Assembly: GCA_016182565.1 (NCBI GenBank)
Contig: JACPGI010000009.1
Coordinates: 19,154 to 83,153, forward strand
Direction of reading: 5' to 3'
DNA: 64,000 nt
Source: a candidate division WWE3 bacterium
GTDB taxonomy: Bacteria > Patescibacteriota > WWE3 > UBA101185 > UBA10185
The notes beneath the pieces were generated by a model that was not told the origin of the DNA, made no database searches, and saw only the letters and a program-made list of their open reading frames with translations. How positions within the stretch are numbered: position 1 is the stretch's first letter; each line of letters begins with the position of its first letter. The position numbers were made by a program, and so were the translations under genes. Below are positions 1 through 39,245 of this stretch, one piece after another.

Positions 1-155
1 TTTGGTTGGAGGCGTGTTTGCCCATAATACCAGTAGCACTGTTCTATATTGTATAAAAAAGAGTTAACAGCAACCACGCCTTGACCACGCTATTTTTAGT
101 GTAGGTAGCTTGTTGAACGCTTTTTATACTTTTAGCAATCTGTTATGCTTTTAGT

Positions 156-2714
156 ATGATCACTCTGCCTGTTGATTTAGTGAGATTTGGAAGCTGGATT
201 TTAGCTACCGCCCCTGTCCGTATCGCCAAAATATTTGGCAGAATTATTATACTTGTAAACAATGAAGCATCATTCATTCTTAATTTAAAGATGCTTTTTG
301 TGCCTTTGTTTGGAGACTATACCTGGGTTGGAAGGCTGATGGGGTTTGTCTACCGCACCATTAAAATCATATTGGGACTTTTAATTATCTTGTTCCTATT
401 TTTACTTGGTATTGTTGTATTTTTGGGTTGGTATATTCTTCCAATTTACCTTTTAGCTGAGACTAAACTATTAATTTTGCCTTTTATTTTAGCCCTATTT
501 TCGTATTGGAAAATTGTTACTCACAACGTTCCAGTTTTGAAAATTCGACACATTACAGGTGATAATTATTTGCAAAGTTTCAGGCCTGAAGCAAGACATG
601 CCCTTGAAAACCTAATTAAATATCCTAAAACCCACTACTATAGATTTTTTCTACATCCAGACATAGTCTTACTCTTAACTAAGCTTGAAGTTCTTGGCAA
701 TAATTTTGTTGAAGATGTAATTGCGCTTGGGCTTGATCACACCTCCCTTAAAGCTAATACATTTAATTTTGCAAAAGAAATGAATGTAAGGTACGTAGAG
801 TTGGAGCATTTATTTTTAGGTATTTTAAGTCTTGTTCCAGACCCAGATAGATTTTTGTCTAAGTATGAACTTACAATGCAAACTTGTACTGATGCCGTAA
901 GTTGGATCGTAAACGAAAGAGAACGACTTTCCAAAATCTTTTTTTGGCAGGAAGACTACCAAGTTCCCATTATGGGCGGTGTTAATAGAGGAATGACGGG
1001 TAGAGTAACTCCTATTTTGGATTCAGTTGGAACAGACTTCACTGAGCAAGCACAGCTTGGTTATATAAAAAATATAAGGGGGCACAAAAAAGAAACCAAA
1101 GATCTTGTGGATATGCTTGGGAATTCCGATATGGTCAATGTTTTAATTGTGGGTCCACCGGGAAGTGGAAAGACCTCTATTGTTAAGGGAATAGCTATGG
1201 AAATCATAAATGGAACTACAGAAAATTCCCTTCAATATAAAAGGATAGTTTCAGTGGAAACAAGTGCCTTGATTGCTGGAGCTTCAACTGCCGGGGATTT
1301 TGCAGGCAGGTTGAAAAGGATAATGGATGATGTTGAAGGGTCGGGCGATATAATTTTGTTTTTTGATGAAATTCATAATCTTGTCGCAGCTGATGCGAAA
1401 GAGGGTTCTACCGTATTTTCTTTGTTGGAACCATATTTTTCTTCAAATAGATTTCAAGTAATAGGTGCAACAAACCTTGAAAATTATAGAAAATTTATAG
1501 AGCCAAACGGATCTTTTGCAAGACTTTTTAGAACAGTAGAAATAGGTGAAACTAATCCAGAAGAAACCTTGGACATATTAGAGGGTGCTGCATACAATTT
1601 TGAAAAAGATTATGGGGTGAAAATTACTTACCCAGCCCTCCAAAAGACCATTTTTCTTTCTAAGAAGTTAATTCATGAGAGAGTTTTTCCTGACAAGGCT
1701 TTAGATATTTTAGGCCGTGCAGTTTTGCTTGTAAGAAAGAACAAGAGTGTAGTATCTGGGGCTGATGTTGCCGACGTGATTTCTGAATTAACCCATATTC
1801 CAGTAAGTGTAGTAAGTGAGAGTGAATCCCAAAAATTATTAAATATAGAAAATGAACTGCGTAAAAGAGTAATTGGCCAAGACAAAGCCCTTGAACAGAT
1901 TGGTAAGGCCATGAAAAGAGGTCGGGCTGGTATAAGAAGTGAAACAAAACCGATTGCTTCATTTTTATTTGTGGGGACAACTGGGGTGGGAAAAACTGAG
2001 ACAGCAAAAGCCTTAGCCGCGTACTACTTTGGAAGTGAAAAAGTCATGATTCGTATGGATATGTCGGAGTATCAACAGCAAGATAGTTTAAGTAGGTTAA
2101 TTGGAGCACCAGATGGGAGTTCGAAAGGTATCTTGACCGAAGCTGTAAGGAAAAACCCTTTTTCAATGATACTTCTTGATGAAATAGAAAAAGCTAATCC
2201 CCAGATTTTGCTGGCTTTTTTGCAGGTATTGGATGATGGTAGGCTTACCGACTCTTCAGGCACTGTAGTTGATTTCACTAATACTATAATAATCTCTACA
2301 AGTAATGTTGGCACAAGAGCCATTCAAATTGAGGCGGAAAAAGGTGCTGATTTCGAGACTATAAATACTGTAGTCATGGCCGAGGTAAGAGTCCATTTTG
2401 CTCCCGAATTCTTAAACAGGTATAGCGGCATTATTGTATTTAGACCACTAAGCGCCGATGATTTTAGAAAAATTGTAGGAATAATGTTAACAAGAGTCCA
2501 AAGAGTTTCAGAGGAAAAAGGTATTAGGGTATCTTTTAAGCCGGAGCTTATTGATGAGCTGTTAAAACGAGGGTTTACTCGTGAGTGGGGAGCAAGACCA
2601 CTTGCAAGAGTTATAGAAGATAGTGTTGAAACTTACATCGCTATAAAACTTTTATCCAACGAGCTTGTAAGGGGAGATGAAATAAACCTTGGGACCGAGG
2701 TTTTTACTGATTGA
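156..2714 (+). CDS. Class III Clp/Hsp100 AAA+ ATPase (ClpA/ClpC-like, two AAA modules, no M-domain) with an N-terminal hydrophobic extension of about 125 aa (2 predicted TM helices) preceding the Clp_N domain
   Basis: Walker A GPPGSGKT and Walker B ILFFDEIHNL in AAA1. Second Walker A VGTTGVGKTETAKALA plus the RVIGQD signature in AAA2. Clp_N-like repeat YVELEHLFLGIL. Residues about 55-115 are strongly hydrophobic (IKIILGLLIILFLFLLGIVVFLGWYILPIYLL). The ORF is uninterrupted from 156. Confidence 0.85.
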   Translation: MITLPVDLVRFGSWILATAPVRIAKIFGRIIILVNNEASFILNLKMLFVPLFGDYTWVGRLMGFVYRTIKIILGLLIILFLFLLGIVVFLGWYILPIYLLAETKLLILPFILALFSYWKIVTHNVPVLKIRHITGDNYLQSFRPEARHALENLIKYPKTHYYRFFLHPDIVLLLTKLEVLGNNFVEDVIALGLDHTSLKANTFNFAKEMNVRYVELEHLFLGILSLVPDPDRFLSKYELTMQTCTDAVSWIVNERERLSKIFFWQEDYQVPIMGGVNRGMTGRVTPILDSVGTDFTEQAQLGYIKNIRGHKKETKDLVDMLGNSDMVNVLIVGPPGSGKTSIVKGIAMEIINGTTENSLQYKRIVSVETSALIAGASTAGDFAGRLKRIMDDVEGSGDIILFFDEIHNLVAADAKEGSTVFSLLEPYFSSNRFQVIGATNLENYRKFIEPNGSFARLFRTVEIGETNPEETLDILEGAAYNFEKDYGVKITYPALQKTIFLSKKLIHERVFPDKALDILGRAVLLVRKNKSVVSGADVADVISELTHIPVSVVSESESQKLLNIENELRKRVIGQDKALEQIGKAMKRGRAGIRSETKPIASFLFVGTTGVGKTETAKALAAYYFGSEKVMIRMDMSEYQQQDSLSRLIGAPDGSSKGILTEAVRKNPFSMILLDEIEKANPQILLAFLQVLDDGRLTDSSGTVVDFTNTIIISTSNVGTRAIQIEAEKGADFETINTVVMAEVRVHFAPEFLNRYSGIIVFRPLSADDFRKIVGIMLTRVQRVSEEKGIRVSFKPELIDELLKRGFTREWGARPLARVIEDSVETYIAIKLLSNELVRGDEINLGTEVFTD

Positions 2715-2810: not shown

Positions 2811-3824
2811 ATGCAAGATCCTCAGGAAAAATTAATAGGGCTTAGCGAAAAACTTGAAGTTACTACAAAAAGAGAGCGTATTAAAGAACTTGAAACTATT
2901 ATTTCTGACGAAAAGATATGGCAAGACTGGGAAAAAGGACAAAAATTATCTCAAGAACTTGCTGAGATAAAAAGAGATCTTGAGGAGTTTGAAATGCTAG
3001 AGCTTCTTCTTGAAGCTGCAAATACTGAAGAGGAAAGATTAGAGTTTGATAAAGAGTTTAAGAAGCTAGAACTTAAAACCTACTTGTCAGGAAGTCATGA
3101 TAAAGGAGATGCTATTTTATCAATTCATTCTGGGCAAGGTGGTACAGAAGCAATGGATTGGGCAGCTATTTTATATCGCATGTATTCAAGGTATGCCGAG
3201 AATAAATACTGGAAATTTGTGGAGTTAGAAAAAACTCGTGGGGAGGAAGCCGGAATAAAATCTGTTTCTGTTGAGGTGGACGGTAAATACGCCTATGGGT
3301 TTTTGAAAAATGAGTCGGGTGTACATAGACTTGTAAGGCAATCTCCGTTTAATGCTGATGATCTAAGGCAAACTTCATTTGCATTAGTTGAAGTTATTCC
3401 CGTGATTGATGATGGTATTGATGTAGAAGTAAAGCCTGCGGATATAGAGGAGGAATTTTTCAGATCAGGTGGTGCTGGTGGACAAAATGTAAATAAGGTT
3501 TCTACTGCAGTGAGACTAAGACATATCCCAACCGGTATTGTAGTTGAAAATCAGACTGAGAGATTTCAAGCTAAAAACAGAGAAAAAGCTATGAAAGTTT
3601 TAAAATCTAAGTTGTATGCTTTGGAGTTGCAAAAGATTGAGGCTGAGAAAAGAAAACTCAAAGGTGATTATGTGGTGCCGGGATGGGGGAATCAAATTCG
3701 AAATTATGTATTACACCCATATAAACTTGTAAAAGACTTACGCACAGATATTGAAAGCACAAATCCGGAAAATGTTTTAGACGGTGATTTAGATATGTTT
3801 ATCGAGGCTGAAGTAAAGCTGTAA
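2811..3824 (+). CDS. prfB: Peptide chain release factor 2
   Basis: SPF tripeptide (QSPFNA) specific for RF2. GGQ motif (SGGAGGQNVNKVSTAVRL). The ORF is contiguous with no CUU-UGA frameshift site. Confidence 0.9.
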   Translation: MQDPQEKLIGLSEKLEVTTKRERIKELETIISDEKIWQDWEKGQKLSQELAEIKRDLEEFEMLELLLEAANTEEERLEFDKEFKKLELKTYLSGSHDKGDAILSIHSGQGGTEAMDWAAILYRMYSRYAENKYWKFVELEKTRGEEAGIKSVSVEVDGKYAYGFLKNESGVHRLVRQSPFNADDLRQTSFALVEVIPVIDDGIDVEVKPADIEEEFFRSGGAGGQNVNKVSTAVRLRHIPTGIVVENQTERFQAKNREKAMKVLKSKLYALELQKIEAEKRKLKGDYVVPGWGNQIRNYVLHPYKLVKDLRTDIESTNPENVLDGDLDMFIEAEVKL

Positions 3825-4047
3825 TCTCTTTGTAACCTATCCCGTTAAAATGCAATGCTAAGATAAAGAGTAGACTAAATACTGCAAAAATTGAGGTTTT
3901 GATAAGGTCGGATTTGATTTGTTTTATGGGCAGGTCATTAATATTTTTCCTCTCACTACCGCCTTTTGCCTCTATTTCAAGCCCAACTGATCCCTGAGCT
4001 TTAAGTATTTCTTCATATCTTTTTGTACGTAACTTCTTTTTTTGCAT
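3799..4047 (-). CDS. Hypothetical small protein with basic N-terminus and one C-terminal TM helix, convergent with and overlapping the prfB 3' end
   Basis: 82-aa ORF with a C-terminal hydrophobic stretch IFAVFSLLFILALHF. No clear SD sequence. It could be spurious in AT-rich DNA. Confidence 0.3.
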   Translation of the reverse strand: MQKKKLRTKRYEEILKAQGSVGLEIEAKGGSERKNINDLPIKQIKSDLIKTSIFAVFSLLFILALHFNGIGYKEITALLQPR

Positions 4048-4139
4048 ATGTGTATTCTATCAGATAGCACAAGGCCATAATTTAAATTTGTAAAAACTGC
4101 ATATAGACACAATATGTACTCAATCTCTATAATGCATCC

Positions 4140-4601
4140 ATGGACAGTTTGATTCCGTTTTTTATATCGTTATCGGTTTTTACAGTATGGTTACTGCTTT
4201 TGACTTATTTGTATCTGGACTCAGTTCGCCACTATAAAAATCTTTCAATCAATAGGGGCGAAAGTTTAGATAAAGCAATAAACCTCATATTTAAAGGTTT
4301 AGAGCAATTGCACAACGAGCTTGGTAAAGAAAAGGCAAGGATATTAGATCTTGAAAAAGCGCAGGTGAGAAATGTTCAGAAAGTTTCTTTAAAAAGATTT
4401 AATCCTTTTGATGATACAGGTGGAAATCAATCTTTTACTATGGCAATGCTTGATGCAAATAACGATGGAGTAGTTTTTTCAAGTTTGCACGGTAGAAGCG
4501 GAACTAGAATTTATGCAAAACCAATAAAGAGTGGTATGCAGGCTGATCATGAGTTATCTGAGGAGGAGCAAGAAGTAGTTAATTTGGCATCTAAGGACTA
4601 A
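4140..4601 (+). CDS. DUF4446-like membrane-anchored protein
   Basis: N-terminal TM helix. The conserved C-terminal block FNPFDDTGGNQSFTMAMLDANNDGVVFSSLHGRSGTRIYAKPI resembles the DUF4446 family as I recall it. TATAAT lies 7 nt upstream of the ATG. Confidence 0.6.
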   Translation: MDSLIPFFISLSVFTVWLLLLTYLYLDSVRHYKNLSINRGESLDKAINLIFKGLEQLHNELGKEKARILDLEKAQVRNVQKVSLKRFNPFDDTGGNQSFTMAMLDANNDGVVFSSLHGRSGTRIYAKPIKSGMQADHELSEEEQEVVNLASKD

Positions 4602-36610: not shown

Positions 36611-37549
36611 ATGAAAAAAAATATAAAAATAATTTTCAAAATACTTGTAAGTTTACTTTTAATTTCCATTATTCTTCTTAAAGTAGATAATAGTTTAGTA
36701 ATAAAAAACCTTTCTTTAGTGGATGTTAGTTTTATTCCAGCAATTATTTTAATGTTTTTATTGAACTATTTTCTAAGCTCTTTAAGATGGAAAAAATTGA
36801 TTTTAAGTAGTAGCACTACGTCCATATCAACTGTTTATCTTACAAAACTTTATATAATAGGGTCGTTTTTTAACAACTTTATGCCAACAAGCATTGGTGG
36901 GGATGTTTACAAAGTTTATCGGTTGGGTAAAAAGATTAAAAATACTACTGAGGCATTTATCGCTACTTTTATGGAGCGTTTTACTGGTATGATTGCTTTG
37001 GTTTTAATATCCTATCTTGGCCTTATAAAGACCTTAGGTTTCTGGATTGCCCAACTTCCACCTTTTCTTTCTGTAAATTCAACCTTTCTTTTATTTTTTA
37101 AATTTCTACTTTTTGGTGGTTTTTGGATTTTTGCTGTTGCGGGATTTTTATCACTTAAAATCTTTTCTAAAAAATTTAACGTCTTACATGACATTTATGA
37201 TTCCCTTTTACGATATAAAAATAAAAAAAGAATTTTAATCGATGCAGTATTGACCTCATTTTTGGTTCAATTAGTAGCGATTTTGTCGCATTGGCTTGTT
37301 TTGAAATCTTTAGGTGTCACAGTTGAATATTCATATGCACTTTTTGTGTTTCCGATTATTTTTCTTGCTGGTTTTTTTATCCCATCAATAAATGGATTTG
37401 GAGTACAGGATGCATTATATATAAGGTTTTTTACCGAGGTTGGTGTTCCCATGGAGCTCGCGTTATCTGCATCTATAACATATCATTTTTTTAAACTTGC
37501 TGTAAGTTTATTAGGGGGTCTTTTTTATGCATTTGATAAATCTGATTAA
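36611..37549 (+). CDS. LPG_synthase_TM (UPF0104) flippase-like membrane protein
   Basis: 8 TM with the signature FMPTSIGGDVYKVYRLGK. Confidence 0.6.
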   Translation: MKKNIKIIFKILVSLLLISIILLKVDNSLVIKNLSLVDVSFIPAIILMFLLNYFLSSLRWKKLILSSSTTSISTVYLTKLYIIGSFFNNFMPTSIGGDVYKVYRLGKKIKNTTEAFIATFMERFTGMIALVLISYLGLIKTLGFWIAQLPPFLSVNSTFLLFFKFLLFGGFWIFAVAGFLSLKIFSKKFNVLHDIYDSLLRYKNKKRILIDAVLTSFLVQLVAILSHWLVLKSLGVTVEYSYALFVFPIIFLAGFFIPSINGFGVQDALYIRFFTEVGVPMELALSASITYHFFKLAVSLLGGLFYAFDKSD

Positions 37550-39245
37550 AAAAACAAAAGGAAACTTAAATTACATAAAACTTGAAAAATGGTTTTTTAT
37601 AATATTTTTTGTTGTAGTTTTTTTAATAACAAGATTACCCTATTTGAGTAAAGACACTGTAAATCCGGATAGTGTAAACTGGCACACAAGATCCGAACAA
37701 TTTATAAATGGGTTAAAGTATTTTCAGCTTGATAAAACTTATCAACATTATCAACCCGGAGTTACTTTAATGTGGCTGATGGGGCCGACTATCGAAATTG
37801 TAAGAAGGCTATCTCTTGACGGGGCAGTTTACAACGAGTTTACTTTTCCAATTTATGATTACGTAGCAAAAATCGTGGTTGTTTTTTCTCAACTAATACT
37901 TTCTATTTCCGCAATGTATCTTTTTGCCAATTTTTTCAAGCTGAGAAAAGCTTTTTTTGTAGTCTTATTGTTTACTTTAGAACCATTTTTTATTGGTAAC
38001 TCCAGGCTTGTTCATTTGGATATCTTAATGAGCCTTCTATTATTAAATGGACTAATTTTGTCCTACTGGGTTATAAAAAAGTTTAACTTAACTCGTCTTG
38101 TTATTGCGTCCATTTTATTTGCATTGGCTTTTTTGACAAAAAGTATCGGAGTAGGGGGATTCTTATATGCATCGTTTGTTGGTGCTTTATTGATCTTTCT
38201 AACTGAAATAAAAAATGATCCAAAAAACACGCAGCTTATAAAAATCAGCTTAAATAAAGCCTTAAAGTACTTAGTTTTATTCTTATTTTTTAGTTTCATA
38301 TTTATCTTTATATTTTGGCCAGCACTTTGGGTAAATTTCACAGAGGTTATGGGATATTTATATTACGGTGCATTTAGGGTAGGTTTAGCTAAAGGGCACA
38401 ACCAAATATTTTTGGAAGGTAAGACAAGGGACGCCGGATGGCTGTTTTATCCTGTCGTGATGCTATATAAAACATCCATTTTTACTTCGTTTGGTGTATT
38501 ATTAAACCTTTTGTTAGTGAGCCCAAGAAATTTATTTAATAAACTAAAGCACCTTTTTACCCCAATTAGAAATTTCAAGGTAAGTGCTTCAAAAATAATT
38601 CCTAATGTTGTAAGAATTGCAGATAGTTTTACCCTTGAACAATATCTTTTTGTTTTCTATGTAGGTTACTTTGTTGTTATGTCTATTAGCAGTAAAAAAA
38701 TCGACCGCTACGCTGTTGTTATGTTTCCCATGCTTTCGATTCTTGCCATAAATGGATATTTTAAATATCTAATGTTATTTAAATCCCGTATGTTAAACCT
38801 TGTGAGTACTATATTTGTACTTGGTTTGTTTACATATGGGTTAATAATTCCAAGCTTTACCTTTTTTCCATATTATTTTACCTATACAAATCCATTGCTT
38901 GGTACACCTCAATATGTTCATGAGAATATTTTGGCCCAAAAACCATTTGGTATAGGTATGTACGCTGTGAAAGACTTAATTGTAGAAAAATATGGCTCGA
39001 CAAGAGATATTGCACTTATTGATCCGAAGCCTATGATGAGTATATATAACAAAGATCATGTGTATTATGTTGATGTAGTTGGAACGAGAGTTTTTGATAC
39101 TCTAATTCTTGGCGTTAATGAAAAAATGCCCGGTAAGGTGACTAAAGGTAAGTTCGAATTTATTAAATCTGATTCTATCTATATAAATGGGTTAGAATAC
39201 TGGAGAATATATGTACGAGGTAATGAAAAAATTAAAACCCCATAA
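37527..39245 (+). CDS. GT-C glycosyltransferase, PMT/ArnT-like (GT39/GT83-type), paralog 1
   Basis: TRLPYLSKDTVNPDSVNWHTRS...YQPGVTLMW first periplasmic loop. More than 10 TM. C-terminal soluble domain. Paralogous to 40804..42486. Confidence 0.6.
   Translation: MHLINLIKKTKGNLNYIKLEKWFFIIFFVVVFLITRLPYLSKDTVNPDSVNWHTRSEQFINGLKYFQLDKTYQHYQPGVTLMWLMGPTIEIVRRLSLDGAVYNEFTFPIYDYVAKIVVVFSQLILSISAMYLFANFFKLRKAFFVVLLFTLEPFFIGNSRLVHLDILMSLLLLNGLILSYWVIKKFNLTRLVIASILFALAFLTKSIGVGGFLYASFVGALLIFLTEIKNDPKNTQLIKISLNKALKYLVLFLFFSFIFIFIFWPALWVNFTEVMGYLYYGAFRVGLAKGHNQIFLEGKTRDAGWLFYPVVMLYKTSIFTSFGVLLNLLLVSPRNLFNKLKHLFTPIRNFKVSASKIIPNVVRIADSFTLEQYLFVFYVGYFVVMSISSKKIDRYAVVMFPMLSILAINGYFKYLMLFKSRMLNLVSTIFVLGLFTYGLIIPSFTFFPYYFTYTNPLLGTPQYVHENILAQKPFGIGMYAVKDLIVEKYGSTRDIALIDPKPMMSIYNKDHVYYVDVVGTRVFDTLILGVNEKMPGKVTKGKFEFIKSDSIYINGLEYWRIYVRGNEKIKTP

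What the first reader, a model, noticed from the sequence alone, without database searches (positions are those of the whole stretch)
156..2714. Clp/Hsp100 double-AAA+ ATPase with an N-terminal two-helix membrane anchor and no M-domain
AAA1 ends and the AAA2 signature (SESQKLLNIENELRKRVIGQD) follows directly, with no coiled-coil linker. That makes the protein ClpA-like, not ClpC/ClpB-like. About 125 codons precede the Clp_N domain in the same frame without a stop, and they encode two very hydrophobic helices. A stop-free stretch of that length is unlikely by chance at this AT content (basis: seen in sequence plus inference). No in-frame ATG lies between the hydrophobic region and the Clp_N domain. 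Membrane tethering is the hallmark of FtsH, not of Clp ATPases. A tethered ClpA-like unfoldase could be a quality-control or secretion-coupled machine in a reduced genome. No clpP was seen in the window.
Basis: partly seen in the sequence, partly recalled or inferred. Interest (0 to 1): 0.5.

Follow-up and report, generated by a model that had tools for sequence, protein, structure and literature searches.

The report
Membrane-built-in Clp/Hsp100 ATPase of CPR bacteria
This gene encodes a two-ring Clp/Hsp100-type protein-remodelling ATPase that is permanently fused to a small, previously undescribed membrane protein and has lost the tyrosine "grippers", the ClpP-docking loop and the Hsp70-docking domain of its well-studied relatives; the design is conserved across many uncultivated CPR/Patescibacteria and its job is unknown.

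Summary
ORF 156..2714 (+, 852 aa) is a double-AAA+ Clp/Hsp100 ATPase with no M-domain. It carries a ~125-residue N-terminal extension containing a 33-residue and a 17-residue uncharged hydrophobic segment. The extension is not a start-codon artefact: ~120 orthologue clusters (47-60% identical, WWE3 and other Patescibacteria) keep it, with invariant residues (P50, G59, R67, W92...).

New findings:
1. The extension is a conserved module, not a plain anchor. It also exists as a stand-alone ~110-aa protein that no curated library recognises. That small gene lies 1-16 nt upstream of, or overlapping, a Clp-like ATPase gene in other CPR lineages, so the window shows the fused form of a two-gene system.
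2. Both canonical pore-loop tyrosines are absent in 92/92 family members.
3. There is no ClpP-docking [LIV]-G-[FL] loop (1/92), so "ClpA-like" holds only for domain order. The motor is closer to ClpC/ClpB.
4. The Clp_N domain is real but diverged: below the Pfam threshold, recovered by fold search.

Most likely it is a protease-independent, membrane-integrated hexameric remodelling ATPase whose entry face points at the membrane. Substrate and mechanism are inferred, not shown. I rate it a new variant of a known kind, interest about 0.6.

The parts
156..2714 (+). Complete ORF, 852 aa: membrane module + Clp_N-like domain + D1 + D2 + D2-small
   Evidence: An identical protein is in NCBI as 'ATP-dependent Clp protease ATP-binding subunit [candidate division WWE3 bacterium]' (P0002).
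156..356 (+). Cytoplasmic part of the membrane module (res 1-67): basic amphipathic helix 4-38, then the signature L-F-[TV]-P-L-F-G-D-Y-T-x-x-G-R-x-x-G-F-x-x-R (res 46-67 = nt 291-356)
   Evidence: Invariant or near-invariant W14, P20, N35, N43, F48, P50, G53, D54, Y55, G59, R60, G63, R67. Modelled as helices at pLDDT 77-91. About 7 conserved K/R, so placed inside by the positive-inside rule (inference).
357..455 (+). Hydrophobic segment 1 (res 68-100, TIKIILGLLIILFLFLLGIVVFLGWYILPIYLL), with conserved G74, P89 (F in this protein), W92, P96
   Evidence: KD peak 3.43. No charged residue in columns 71-100 across 92 sequences. This is the last element of the stand-alone ~110-aa homologues.
468..518 (+). 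Hydrophobic segment 2 (res 105-121, LLILPFILALFSYWKIV), followed by a basic cluster and P126-x-K-[KR]
   Evidence: It aligns with the second hydrophobic helix of the split-system ATPases. Inferred to bring the chain back to the cytoplasm.
567..929 (+). Diverged Clp N-domain (res ~138-258)
   Evidence: Pfam Clp_N is sub-threshold (13.6 bits against 20.7). The family profile hits ClpC/ClpB/ClpA N-domains at E 1e-4 to 1e-3. The AF2 model (pLDDT 84) gives Foldseek top hits that are all Clp N-domains, 130-146 aligned columns, TM-score to target 0.5-0.58, probability 1.00.
930..1025 (+). Conserved pre-D1 linker (res 259-290), F-W-Q-E-D-Y...G-G...G-M-T-G-R-V-T-P-x-L-D
   Evidence: W264, Q265, D267, G275, T281, G282, R283, T285, P286, L288 are invariant or >=90%. 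The R-x-T-P-x-L-D core is also present in the split-system ATPases. Function unknown.
1026..1748 (+). D1 AAA+ module with lid: Walker A GPPGSGKT (nt 1152-1175), Walker B ILFFDEI (nt 1353-1373), one Arg of the ERRF pair kept (FARLF)
1275..1301 (+). D1 pore-1 loop AGASTAGDF, where ClpB/ClpA have AGAKYRGEF: the tyrosine is missing
   Evidence: Alignment to T. thermophilus and E. coli ClpB. The family column is T51/S26/N9/G4/A1/H1, with no aromatic in 92 sequences.
1713..1775 (+). D1-D2 junction where ClpB/ClpC carry the M-domain: no insertion
   Evidence: T. thermophilus ClpB residues 395-520 are skipped. ClpA aligns in one stretch. The same holds in the split-system ATPases.
1749..2441 (+). D2 AAA+ module: Walker A GTTGVGKT (nt 1974-1997), Walker B MILLDEI (nt 2166-2186), sensor-1 N717, Arg finger R755
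   Evidence: these residues are invariant in 92 sequences
2103..2129 (+). D2 pore-1 loop GAPDGSSKG: 4 residues shorter than ClpB GAPPGYVGYEEGG, GYVG absent
   Evidence: gap in the alignment; the family reads G-x-P-D-G-[SK]-[ST]-K-G, with no aromatic among the listed residues at these columns.
2301..2411 (+). Segment homologous to the ClpP-docking loop site of ClpA/ClpC: no [LIV]-G-[FL] tripeptide. The 36-residue ClpB length is counted from a remembered sequence.
   Evidence: motif in 1 of 92; segment length 37 in 90 of 92
2448..2687 (+). ClpB_D2-small domain with sensor-2 G-A-R-P-L
   Evidence: 65.7 bits; G812, A813, R814 invariant

Best explanation
The gene encodes a membrane-integrated, protease-independent class-I (two-ring) Hsp100/Clp-family ATPase that is specific to CPR/Patescibacteria.

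Architecture:
- It arose by fusing a small conserved membrane protein to a ClpC/ClpB-like motor. That small protein has a basic amphipathic helix, the PLFGDY-GR-G-R signature and one long hydrophobic helix.
- In other CPR lineages the same two parts are adjacent genes.
- Proposed topology (inferred): N-terminus in the cytoplasm, hydrophobic segment 68-100 out, a 4-residue turn, segment 105-121 back in. About 15 residues later come the Clp N-domain, D1 and D2.
- By analogy with solved Hsp100 hexamers, six copies would form a ring. The N-domain/D1 entry face would be held against the inner face of the membrane by a collar of 12 membrane helices (inferred).

Mechanism:
- Both rings keep the residues for ATP binding and hydrolysis, so it is an active motor (inferred from motifs).
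- It lacks the ClpP-docking loop, so it cannot feed ClpP in the known way.
- It lacks the M-domain, so it cannot be driven by DnaK in the ClpB way.
- Both pore-1 loops lack the aromatic residue, so canonical hand-over-hand polypeptide threading is doubtful.
- The most likely activity is ATP-driven remodelling or extraction of a membrane-embedded or membrane-bound partner, selected by the N-domain and the membrane module. This would involve short-range, non-processive or atypical substrate contacts, Torsin-like in logic.
For: Shown:
- Domain composition and intact catalytic motifs.
- The M-domain is absent.
- The Clp_N fold is present.
- The D1-D2 body superposes on ClpC/ClpB protomers, TM-score to target ~0.8.
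- The N-terminal module is conserved in ~120 orthologue clusters, with the hydrophobic peak at residue ~70 and the D1 Walker A at ~333, and has invariant residues.
- The module profile finds 440 proteins among 1.84 billion representatives. Many are stand-alone proteins of ~105-125 aa.
- In 5 of the 6 contexts where the small gene is complete and enough sequence follows it (L005, L007, L008, L066, L068), that gene lies 1-16 nt upstream of, or overlaps, a Clp-like ATPase gene. Four of these are full-length, 831-868 aa; the L008 ORF is cut by the contig end. The sixth, L070, has no ORF of 150 aa or more starting within 300 nt downstream.
- Of 62 loci from GTDB species genomes, 49 carry a complete fused ORF (834-1212 aa), 10 run off the contig and 3 are split. 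All are Patescibacteria.
- Pore-loop aromatics are absent in 92/92.
- The ClpP-loop motif occurs in 1/92.
- The setting is housekeeping and syntenic: ribosomal/rpoA cluster upstream, RF2 downstream.
- Precedent: Torsins are Clp/Hsp100-related, membrane-associated through an N-terminal hydrophobic domain, and lack aromatic pore loops (PMC5425593).
Against: - No experiment or expression data exist, and no substrate is known.
- The AF2 monomer model draws residues 57-122 as one unbroken helix. It therefore does not itself show a hairpin. The two-crossing topology rests on hydrophobicity, charge distribution, the requirement that AAA+ domains be cytoplasmic, and comparison of fused and split forms.
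- No dedicated TM predictor was available.
- Some AAA+ motors use non-aromatic pore loops, so loss of tyrosine does not prove loss of threading.
- Whether these genomes encode ClpP, DnaK or other Hsp100s could not be checked.
Confidence: 0.6

Rival explanations
1. It is a canonical ClpA/ClpC-type unfoldase that delivers substrates to ClpP, merely tethered to the membrane. This would be an FtsH-like membrane protease built from Clp parts.
For: - The ClpA-like domain order (N-domain, D1, D2, no M-domain) aligns to ClpA in one stretch.
- Databases annotate it as 'ATP-dependent Clp protease ATP-binding subunit'.
Against: - No [LIV]-G-[FL] docking tripeptide at the homologous D2 site in 91 of 92 members. 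The segment is about as long as in ClpB, which does not bind ClpP (the ClpB comparison rests on a remembered sequence).
- Both pore-loop tyrosines are missing.
- NCBIfam ClpA/ClpB scores are far below the equivalog cut-offs (490 against 993; 540 against 1232).
- No clpP in the window or in the four fused-form loci inspected.
Confidence: 0.08
2. It is a translocase for a non-protein, negatively charged polymer, or a motor for a secretion or uptake apparatus at the membrane. The basic and hydroxyl pore loops would contact phosphate or acidic groups as in hexameric nucleic-acid motors. D1 reads [KR]-[TS]; D2 reads [SK]-[ST]-K.
For: - Family-wide pore-loop composition: K/R 79% and T/S 84% in D1; K/R 75% at the D2 position.
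- Intact ATPase sites in both rings.
- The ring entrance is inferred to face the membrane.
- Conserved proximity to a secreted SipW-type protein and, in one locus, its signal peptidase. secDF lies 3.6 kb downstream in the window.
Against: - This rests purely on composition.
- The D1 lysine is simply the ancestral K of K-Y-R.
- The retained Clp N-domain is a protein or peptide-binding module in all known relatives.
- No nucleic-acid-binding domain is present, and no conserved link to competence or pilus genes appears in the loci examined.
Confidence: 0.1
3. The fusion is an annotation or assembly artefact. The true ATPase would start at an internal TTG (codon 128 or 139), and the upstream 125 codons would be a separate small gene, as in the split systems.
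For: - In-frame TTG codons exist at 128 and 139.
- Split arrangements do exist in Parcubacteria and others.
- No obvious Shine-Dalgarno sequence before ATG 156.
Against: - One uninterrupted frame in 49 independent GTDB genomes and ~120 protein clusters from different assemblers and samples.
- There is no stop codon anywhere between the module and the ATPase.
- In true split systems the ATPase carries its own two N-terminal hydrophobic helices, of which the fused form keeps only one. A product starting at codon 128 would therefore have no membrane segment at all.
- The chance of the open frame is 4.7e-5.
Confidence: 0.03
4. It is a largely non-catalytic scaffold or regulator, a pseudo-Hsp100 like plant SMAX1/D53, that merely organises a membrane complex.
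For: - Loss of pore-loop tyrosines, the M-domain and the ClpP loop.
- In the split relatives D1 has lost Walker A and B.
- SMAX1 appears among distant PDB hits.
Against: In the fused WWE3 family, Walker A and B of both rings, D2 sensor-1, the D2 Arg finger and sensor-2 are invariant or nearly so over 92 sequences of ~50% identity. That indicates selection for ATP hydrolysis.
Confidence: 0.07

Closest known systems
ClpC / ClpB (class-I Hsp100 of bacteria)
   Same: - Closest in sequence: 425-437 bits; 38-40% identity over the D1-D2 core.
- Closest in fold: TM-score to target ~0.8.
- Same N-domain fold, two AAA+ rings and D2-small domain.
- No ClpP loop, as in ClpB.
   Different: - No M-domain at all; ClpB has ~125 aa here and ClpC a shorter one.
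- No pore-loop tyrosines.
- An N-terminal membrane module.
- Scores far below the NCBIfam equivalog cut-offs.
ClpA
   Same: Domain order N-domain, D1, D2 without an M-domain. It aligns as one continuous stretch.
   Different: - ClpA has the I-G-L ClpP-docking loop and the KYR and GYVG pore loops (established knowledge; PMC8666677 title and abstract). This family has neither.
- Lower sequence similarity than to ClpB/ClpC.
- ClpA is soluble.
Torsin ATPases (eukaryotic ER / nuclear envelope)
   Same: Clp/Hsp100-related AAA+ proteins that are membrane-associated through an N-terminal hydrophobic domain, lack aromatic pore loops, and work with membrane-protein partners (PMC5425593).
   Different: - Torsins have a single AAA+ module.
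- They lack their own arginine finger.
- They sit in the ER lumen and are eukaryotic.
- Here there are two rings, a conserved D2 Arg finger, a cytoplasmic location and a bacterial host. This is an analogy, not orthology.
FtsH, Msp1/ATAD1 and archaeal LonB (membrane-anchored AAA+ machines)
   Same: An AAA+ ring held at the cytoplasmic face of a membrane by N-terminal or inserted transmembrane helices. They act on membrane proteins (established knowledge; Msp1: PMC12793716 abstract).
   Different: - Those are single-ring motors of other AAA+ clades with aromatic pore loops.
- FtsH and LonB carry their own protease domain.
- No sequence relationship beyond the AAA+ core: the FtsH core only cross-hits D1 at E=1e-4.
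Split CPR systems (small PLFGDY membrane protein + adjacent Clp-like ATPase; e.g. L005, L007, L066, L068)
   Same: - Homologous membrane module.
- Homologous ATPase without an M-domain.
- Shared R-x-T-P-x-L-D pre-D1 motif.
- Intact D2.
   Different: - Two genes instead of one.
- The ATPase has its own two-helix anchor.
- D1 Walker A and B are degenerate.
- D2 pore loops are variable, some with Tyr or Phe.

Membership tests
Clp/Hsp100 class I (two-ring) AAA+ ATPases | Two tandem AAA+ modules (AAA + AAA_lid_9; AAA_2) followed by the ClpB_D2-small domain | tested here: met
   Pfam AAA 88 bits, AAA_lid_9 44 bits, AAA_2 181 bits, ClpB_D2-small 66 bits, all above cut-off. PDB ClpB/ClpC hits at E~1e-129. 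Fold TM-score to target ~0.8.
Clp/Hsp100 class I (two-ring) AAA+ ATPases | N-terminal double-repeat Clp_N domain | tested here: inconclusive
   Pfam gives 13.6 bits, below the 20.7 cut-off. The family profile hits Clp N-domains at E~1e-4 over one repeat only. The AF2 model matches full Clp N-domains (probability 1.00, TM-score to target 0.5-0.58), but Foldseek E-values are only 5e-3 or weaker and none reach 1e-3. Fold met; sequence signature sub-threshold.
Clp/Hsp100 class I (two-ring) AAA+ ATPases | Aromatic pore-1 loops (K-Y-R in D1, G-Y-V-G in D2) used for substrate threading | tested here: not met
   D1 reads A-S-T-A. In D2 the GYVG is deleted. No aromatic residue in 92 family members at these columns.
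ClpA / ClpC / ClpE (ClpP-coupled unfoldases) | [LIV]-G-[FL] ClpP-docking tripeptide in a surface loop of D2 | tested here: not met
   The motif is found in 1 of 92 members in the homologous segment, and not in the window protein (SNVGTRAIQIEAEKGADFET...).
ClpA (NCBIfam TIGR02639 / PRK11034 equivalog) | Score above the curated equivalog cut-off | tested here: not met
   490 bits against cut-off 993; 382 against 1350.
ClpB disaggregase (NCBIfam TIGR03346 equivalog) | Coiled-coil M-domain inserted in the D1 small domain (Hsp70 docking), and a score above the cut-off | tested here: not met
   ~125 residues of ClpB have no counterpart. 540 bits against cut-off 1232.
FtsH-type membrane AAA+ proteases | N-terminal two-TM anchor, one classic-clade AAA module, and a C-terminal M41 zinc-protease domain | tested here: not met
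   No Peptidase_M41 among the 25 best of 45 Pfam hits listed, and residues 291-844 are fully accounted for by D1, D2 and D2-small. The AAA modules are of the Hsp100 clade. Only the idea of a membrane anchor is shared.
Active AAA+ ATPase (as opposed to a pseudo-ATPase) | Walker A GxxGxGK[ST], Walker B hhhhDE, sensor-1, Arg finger and sensor-2 conserved | tested here: met
   D1: GPPGSGKT, FFDEIH, one Arg kept (81/92). D2: GTTGVGKT, LLDEIE, N717, R755, G-A-R814. Invariant or >=90% in 92 sequences. Actual hydrolysis is not testable here.
Integral membrane protein with two transmembrane helices | Two hydrophobic helices long enough to span the bilayer, positive-inside charge distribution, experimental membrane association | tested here: inconclusive
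   Uncharged hydrophobic columns 71-100, near-uncharged columns 105-117, and basic flanks R60, R67 and K128/K129 are conserved. AF2 draws one continuous helix 57-122. No TMHMM/DeepTMHMM was available. Membrane association cannot be tested with these tools.

The most novel reading that the evidence does not exclude
CPR/Patescibacteria would possess a lineage-specific two-component membrane machine: a small PLFGDY-motif membrane protein plus an M-domain-less Hsp100 ring, fused in WWE3. This machine would have abandoned polypeptide threading. It would use basic/hydroxyl pore loops and a membrane-facing entry to move or remodel something other than an unfolded soluble protein. Candidates are extraction or insertion of membrane or cell-surface proteins for the episymbiotic lifestyle, or translocation of an anionic polymer. 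That would make it a functionally new branch of the Hsp100 family, not a tethered ClpA.
Probability: 0.25. Interest if true: 0.85.

Novelty: new variant of a known kind. Interest (0 to 1): 0.62.

Why it matters
Hsp100/Clp ATPases are textbook soluble machines, defined by tyrosine pore loops and by partnership with either ClpP or Hsp70. This is a conserved, apparently housekeeping branch that breaks three of those rules at once:
- it is built into the membrane through a dedicated, otherwise unknown protein module;
- it has no aromatic pore loops;
- it has no ClpP loop and no M-domain.

It still keeps both ATPase sites under selection. It is confined to CPR/Patescibacteria, whose cell-envelope biology and host attachment are poorly understood and whose reduced genomes retain few non-essential genes.

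Three consequences follow:
- The fused/split gene pair gives a concrete functional link for an uncharacterised small membrane protein family.
- It offers a bacterial counterpart to the unresolved question of how Torsin-like, pore-loop-less AAA+ proteins do work at membranes.
- Current annotations ('ATP-dependent Clp protease ATP-binding subunit ClpA/ClpC') are probably misleading for this family.

Tried and rejected
1. A search with only residues 1-295 in the word-indexed protein database found a single hit. It was too insensitive, and was superseded by the full-length search and the exhaustive profile search.
2. Pfam, NCBIfam and PADLOC scans of the membrane module and of stand-alone homologues found no family. 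PADLOC hits of the full protein (DolB, PDC-M37B) cover only the generic AAA_2 domain. Given the ribosomal/RF2 housekeeping synteny, I rejected them as evidence for a defence role.
3. Promoter and terminator scans around the gene were uninformative: 15 promoter-like sites against 8.5 expected, and no terminator.
4. tRNA and Rfam scans of the window found nothing.
5. Eight literature searches found no description of a membrane-anchored bacterial Hsp100 or of this CPR family (and the WWE3 genome paper). The library does not hold most subscription-journal papers, so absence is not proof.
6. I considered whether the AF2 model could settle the topology.
7. I did not compute dN/dS. The nearest orthologue is only 60% identical, so synonymous sites would be saturated. 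Purifying selection is argued from amino-acid conservation instead.
8. The context of one stand-alone homologue (L006) was too short to be informative.


Full report
**1. What is in the sequence**

The window has one long ORF at 156..2714 on the + strand. It is 852 aa, starts with ATG, and has an in-frame stop upstream at 114-116.

Pfam finds the following, all well above threshold:
- an AAA module at residues 329-463;
- AAA_lid_9 at 468-560;
- an AAA_2 module at 598-756;
- ClpB_D2-small at 765-844.

Against solved structures the best sequence matches are ClpB (T. thermophilus 437 bits, E. coli 433) and ClpC (425, 414). ClpA scores lower (367). ClpB and ClpC align in two pieces because about 125 residues of ClpB (395 to 520, the M-domain) have no counterpart. 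ClpA aligns in one piece.

The 125 codons ahead of the soluble part are open. The probability of that is 4.7e-5 from window base composition, and 6 of 20,000 shuffles are stop-free. They contain a very hydrophobic stretch: Kyte-Doolittle 19-residue peak 3.43, residues 60-103, with a second segment running to 121.

**2. Is the extension real?**

Yes. A full-length search returned 302 proteins at E<=1e-50. The 120 listed are 47-60% identical (one is the 100%-identical database copy), and most are ~850 aa long and cover 98-100% of the query. Those with names come from candidate division WWE3 or 'Patescibacteria group'.

- In nearly all of them the strongest hydrophobic window lies around residue 70 and the D1 Walker A at about residue 333.
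- In a 92-sequence alignment (A1) the N-terminal 126 residues contain invariant P50, G59 and R67.
- The same region has >=90% conserved W14, P20, N35, N43, L46, F48, G53, D54, Y55, R60, G63, G74, W92, P96 and P126.
- Even the first residues (M-x-x-L-P...) line up.

This is the pattern of a folded, selected module, not of a mis-called start. In-frame TTG codons at 128 and 139 exist, but a product starting there would lack every membrane segment.

**3. The extension is a module with a life of its own**

A profile of residues 1-135 (A2) was searched exhaustively against 1.84 billion representative proteins. It gave 440 hits at E<=1e-3 and 103 at E<=1e-10.

- Besides the ~850-aa fused proteins and their fragments, there are dozens of clusters of stand-alone proteins of ~105-125 aa. 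These match profile positions ~5-103.
- They carry the same signature...PL[FY]GDY[ST]xxGRxxGxxxR..., followed by one ~33-residue hydrophobic segment with W-x-x-x-P.
- Pfam, NCBIfam and PADLOC do not recognise them.

Genomic context shows what they belong to:
- In L005 the 110-aa gene ends 2 nt before an 831-aa Clp-like ATPase gene.
- In L007 the gap is 7 nt before an 835-aa gene.
- In L008 the genes overlap by 16 nt, and the downstream ORF has the same N-terminal features.

In a scan of one genome per GTDB species, 62 loci encode the module, all from Patescibacteria. Record titles name WWE3, 'Candidatus Saccharibacteria' (MAG labels), Nomurabacteria, Parcubacteria and unclassified. They break down as follows:
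- 49 carry a complete fused ORF of 834-1212 aa, and 10 more run off the contig.
- 3 are split. In the two Parcubacteria cases (L066, L068) an 868- or 846-aa ATPase gene follows after 16 or 1 nt.
- For the third (L070) no ORF of 150 aa or more was found within 300 nt downstream.

The window therefore shows the fused state of a conserved two-gene system.

**4. Comparison of fused and split ATPases**

All lack the M-domain. All have an intact D2 (Walker A/B, sensor-1, Arg finger, sensor-2). All share an unusual conserved motif just before D1: N-R-x-[WM]-T-[AG]-R-x-T-[PK]-x-L-D. In the window it reads NRGMTGRVTPILD, residues 277-289.

The split ATPases differ in two ways:
- They carry their own pair of N-terminal hydrophobic helices.
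- Their D1 is degenerate. Walker B is lost in all four, and Walker A is altered in three of the four.

The fused WWE3 proteins keep both rings intact. The second hydrophobic helix of the split ATPases aligns with residues 105-121 of the window protein.

This suggests how the fusion is wired:
- the small protein's helix (68-100) goes from inside to outside;
- the retained ATPase helix (105-121) comes back in.

That agrees with the charge pattern. There are about seven conserved K/R in residues 1-67, none in 71-100, K/G at 104, and K128/K129 after the second segment. It also agrees with the requirement that ATPase domains be cytoplasmic.

This topology is an inference. No TM predictor was available, and the AF2 monomer model draws 57-122 as one uninterrupted helix.

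**5. The soluble N-domain**

Pfam Clp_N is below threshold (13.6 bits against 20.7). A profile of residues 122-300 from 31 family members hits ClpC, ClpC1, ClpB and ClpA N-domains at E 1e-4 to 1e-3, over one repeat. An AF2 model of this region has mean pLDDT 84, and above 90 for residues 11-130 of the model. Its top Foldseek hits in the PDB are almost all Clp/Hsp100 N-domains or full-length Clp/Hsp100 chains. They align over 130-146 columns, with TM-score to target 0.5-0.58 and probability 1.00. It is a diverged but complete Clp N-domain.

**6. The motor is not a standard one**

In the HMMER alignments to ClpB:
- The D1 pore-1 loop reads A-G-A-S-T-A-G-D-F where ClpB has A-G-A-K-Y-R-G-E-F.
- The D2 loop reads G-A-P-D-G-S-S-K-G where ClpB has G-A-P-P-G-Y-V-G-Y-E-E-G-G. 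That is four residues shorter, with no GYVG.

Across 92 family members:
- The D1 tyrosine column is T51/S26/N9/G4/A1/H1.
- No aromatic residue appears among the listed residues at the D2 loop columns.
- The flanking glycines are invariant, so the alignment is secure.

The segment where ClpA, ClpC and ClpX carry the ClpP-docking [LIV]-G-[FL] loop is 37 residues in 90 of 92 members. It contains the motif in only one of 92, and not in the window protein. By my count from a remembered E. coli ClpB sequence, that is about the ClpB length.

By contrast, the following are invariant or nearly so: Walker A and B of both rings, D2 sensor-1 N717, Arg finger R755 and sensor-2 R814. D1 keeps one arginine of the ERRF pair (81/92).

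NCBIfam scores are far below all equivalog cut-offs: ClpB 540 against 1232, ClpA 490 against 993, ClpV 450 against 885. The full-length AF2 model has pLDDT 85.4 and pTM 0.74. It superposes best on ClpC, ClpC1 and ClpB protomers, with TM-score to target ~0.8 and 38-40% identity.

In short, this is an ATP-hydrolysing two-ring Hsp100 motor lacking three things:
- the ClpP interface;
- the Hsp70/adaptor-binding M-domain;
- the aromatic paddles used for threading.

**7. Context**

The exact protein is on a 13.6-kb Logan contig, and NCBI holds it on a 122.8-kb contig of a WWE3 MAG.

- Upstream lie S13-S11-S4-rpoA-L17-L13-S9, an HTH gene on the other strand, and a ~200-aa secreted protein.
- Downstream lie RF2, DUF4446, DUF3048 and secD/secF.
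- The same order, from the ribosomal cluster through this gene to RF2, recurs in two orthologues of ~50% identity. A third has a different context.

This is a housekeeping neighbourhood, not a mobile or defence island. No clpP-like sequence is in the window. The remainder of the window holds recJ, aspS/asnS-type and gltX-type synthetases, a PAS histidine kinase, recA, RNase Y and a long envelope-glycan gene island.

**8. How it probably works**

Shown:
- the domain inventory;
- conservation of the membrane module;
- the fused/split relationship;
- intact nucleotide sites;
- absence of the M-domain, the ClpP loop and the pore tyrosines.

Inferred:
- By analogy with all solved Hsp100 hexamers, six subunits form a stacked double ring with the N-domains on the D1 face.
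- Only ~15 residues separate the second membrane helix from the N-domain. That face, the substrate entrance, must therefore sit against the cytoplasmic side of the membrane. It would be surrounded by 12 membrane helices and six basic amphipathic helices.
- The machine cannot hand substrates to ClpP in the known way, and cannot be recruited by DnaK as ClpB is.
- Without aromatic pore loops, processive polypeptide threading is doubtful.

The nearest documented logic is that of Torsins. They are Clp/Hsp100-related, membrane-associated through an N-terminal hydrophobic domain, lack aromatic pore loops, and depend on membrane partners (PMC5425593). The membrane-facing ring geometry resembles FtsH and Msp1.

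I therefore favour ATP-driven remodelling or extraction of a membrane-embedded or membrane-bound client or complex. Confidence in this functional class is about 0.6. Confidence in the structural description is about 0.9.

Alternatives are set out under the rival explanations:
- ClpP-coupled unfoldase: unlikely.
- Translocase for an anionic polymer or secretion motor: speculative, based on the K/R plus S/T pore loops.
- Start-codon artefact: rejected.
- Pseudo-enzyme scaffold: unlikely for the fused form.

**9. Novelty**

The sequences are public, but annotated generically as ClpA or ClpC subunits or as hypothetical proteins. Eight literature searches and the WWE3 genome paper gave no description of a membrane-integrated bacterial Hsp100, of the PLFGDY module, or of the pore-loop loss. 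The library lacks most subscription-journal papers, so this is not proof of absence.

It belongs to a known superfamily but departs from every characterised subfamily in several defining features. I rate it 'new variant of a known kind', interest ~0.6. It would rise to ~0.85 if the non-threading or new-substrate reading proved true.

Noticed in passing
L001 4389-5003 (ends 12 nt before window position 1); homologues at L002 6848-7453 and L004 6979-7566: The gene immediately upstream of the Clp-like gene encodes a conserved ~200-aa secreted protein (44-49% identity between loci). It has no Pfam family and a near-threshold SipW-dependent-type signal peptide (TIGR04088, 17.8 bits against cut-off 19). 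In L002 an archaeal/SipW-type signal peptidase I gene (TIGR02228, 79.8 bits) lies between it and the Clp-like gene. This resembles a TasA/camelysin-like fibre protein with its peptidase. Any functional link to the membrane ATPase is unknown.
   Followed up: partly
window ~25969-62837: There is a long run of same-strand envelope-glycan genes in the lowest-GC part of the window (GC 0.29-0.33 from ~36 kb). It includes GT2 with a GtrA domain, UDP-glucose dehydrogenase, three GT4 glycosyltransferases, DUF2079, three Wzx-like Polysacc_synt flippases and two PMT_2/ArnT-like transferases. Several large ORFs there (e.g. 37527-39245) have no Pfam family, and ORFs beyond 45 kb were not scanned.
   Followed up: partly
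window 1-64000: 46 of the 49 ORFs of 120 aa or more are on the + strand, and two of the three minus-strand ORFs lie inside larger + strand ORFs. GC skew is positive in nearly every 2-kb bin, with cumulative skew rising almost monotonically to 3.84. This suggests the whole window lies on the leading strand of one replichore. No tRNA genes and no Rfam families were found in 64 kb.
   Followed up: no
window 2811-3824: The release factor gene downstream (PCRF + RF-1 domains; SPF and GGQ motifs visible in the translation, so RF2-type) is a single uninterrupted 337-aa ORF. There is no sign of the programmed +1 frameshift common in bacterial prfB.
   Followed up: no
window 145-159: A 4-codon mini-ORF (ATG CTT TTA GTA TGA) ends in a TGA that overlaps the ATG start of the Clp-like ORF (ATGA). 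No Shine-Dalgarno-like sequence precedes ATG 156. This may be chance.
   Followed up: no
L005 6336-8831, L007 1046-3553, L066 4254-6860, L068 1714-4254: In the split (two-gene) versions of the system the ATPase's first ring is a pseudo-ATPase. Walker B is lost in all four (e.g. LHLEDF, LFIGNL), and Walker A is altered in three of the four (e.g. GPEGSGRT, GDEDIGRN). D2 stays intact, and the D2 pore loop varies in length and sometimes regains Tyr or Phe.
   Followed up: partly
L012 (CAYOCN010000001.1), match at 4001-4405: One fused family member is read as a 1212-aa ORF, about 350 aa longer than all others (Walker A motifs at 334 and 609 as usual). It therefore has an unexamined C-terminal extension, or a read-through into the next gene.
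   Followed up: no
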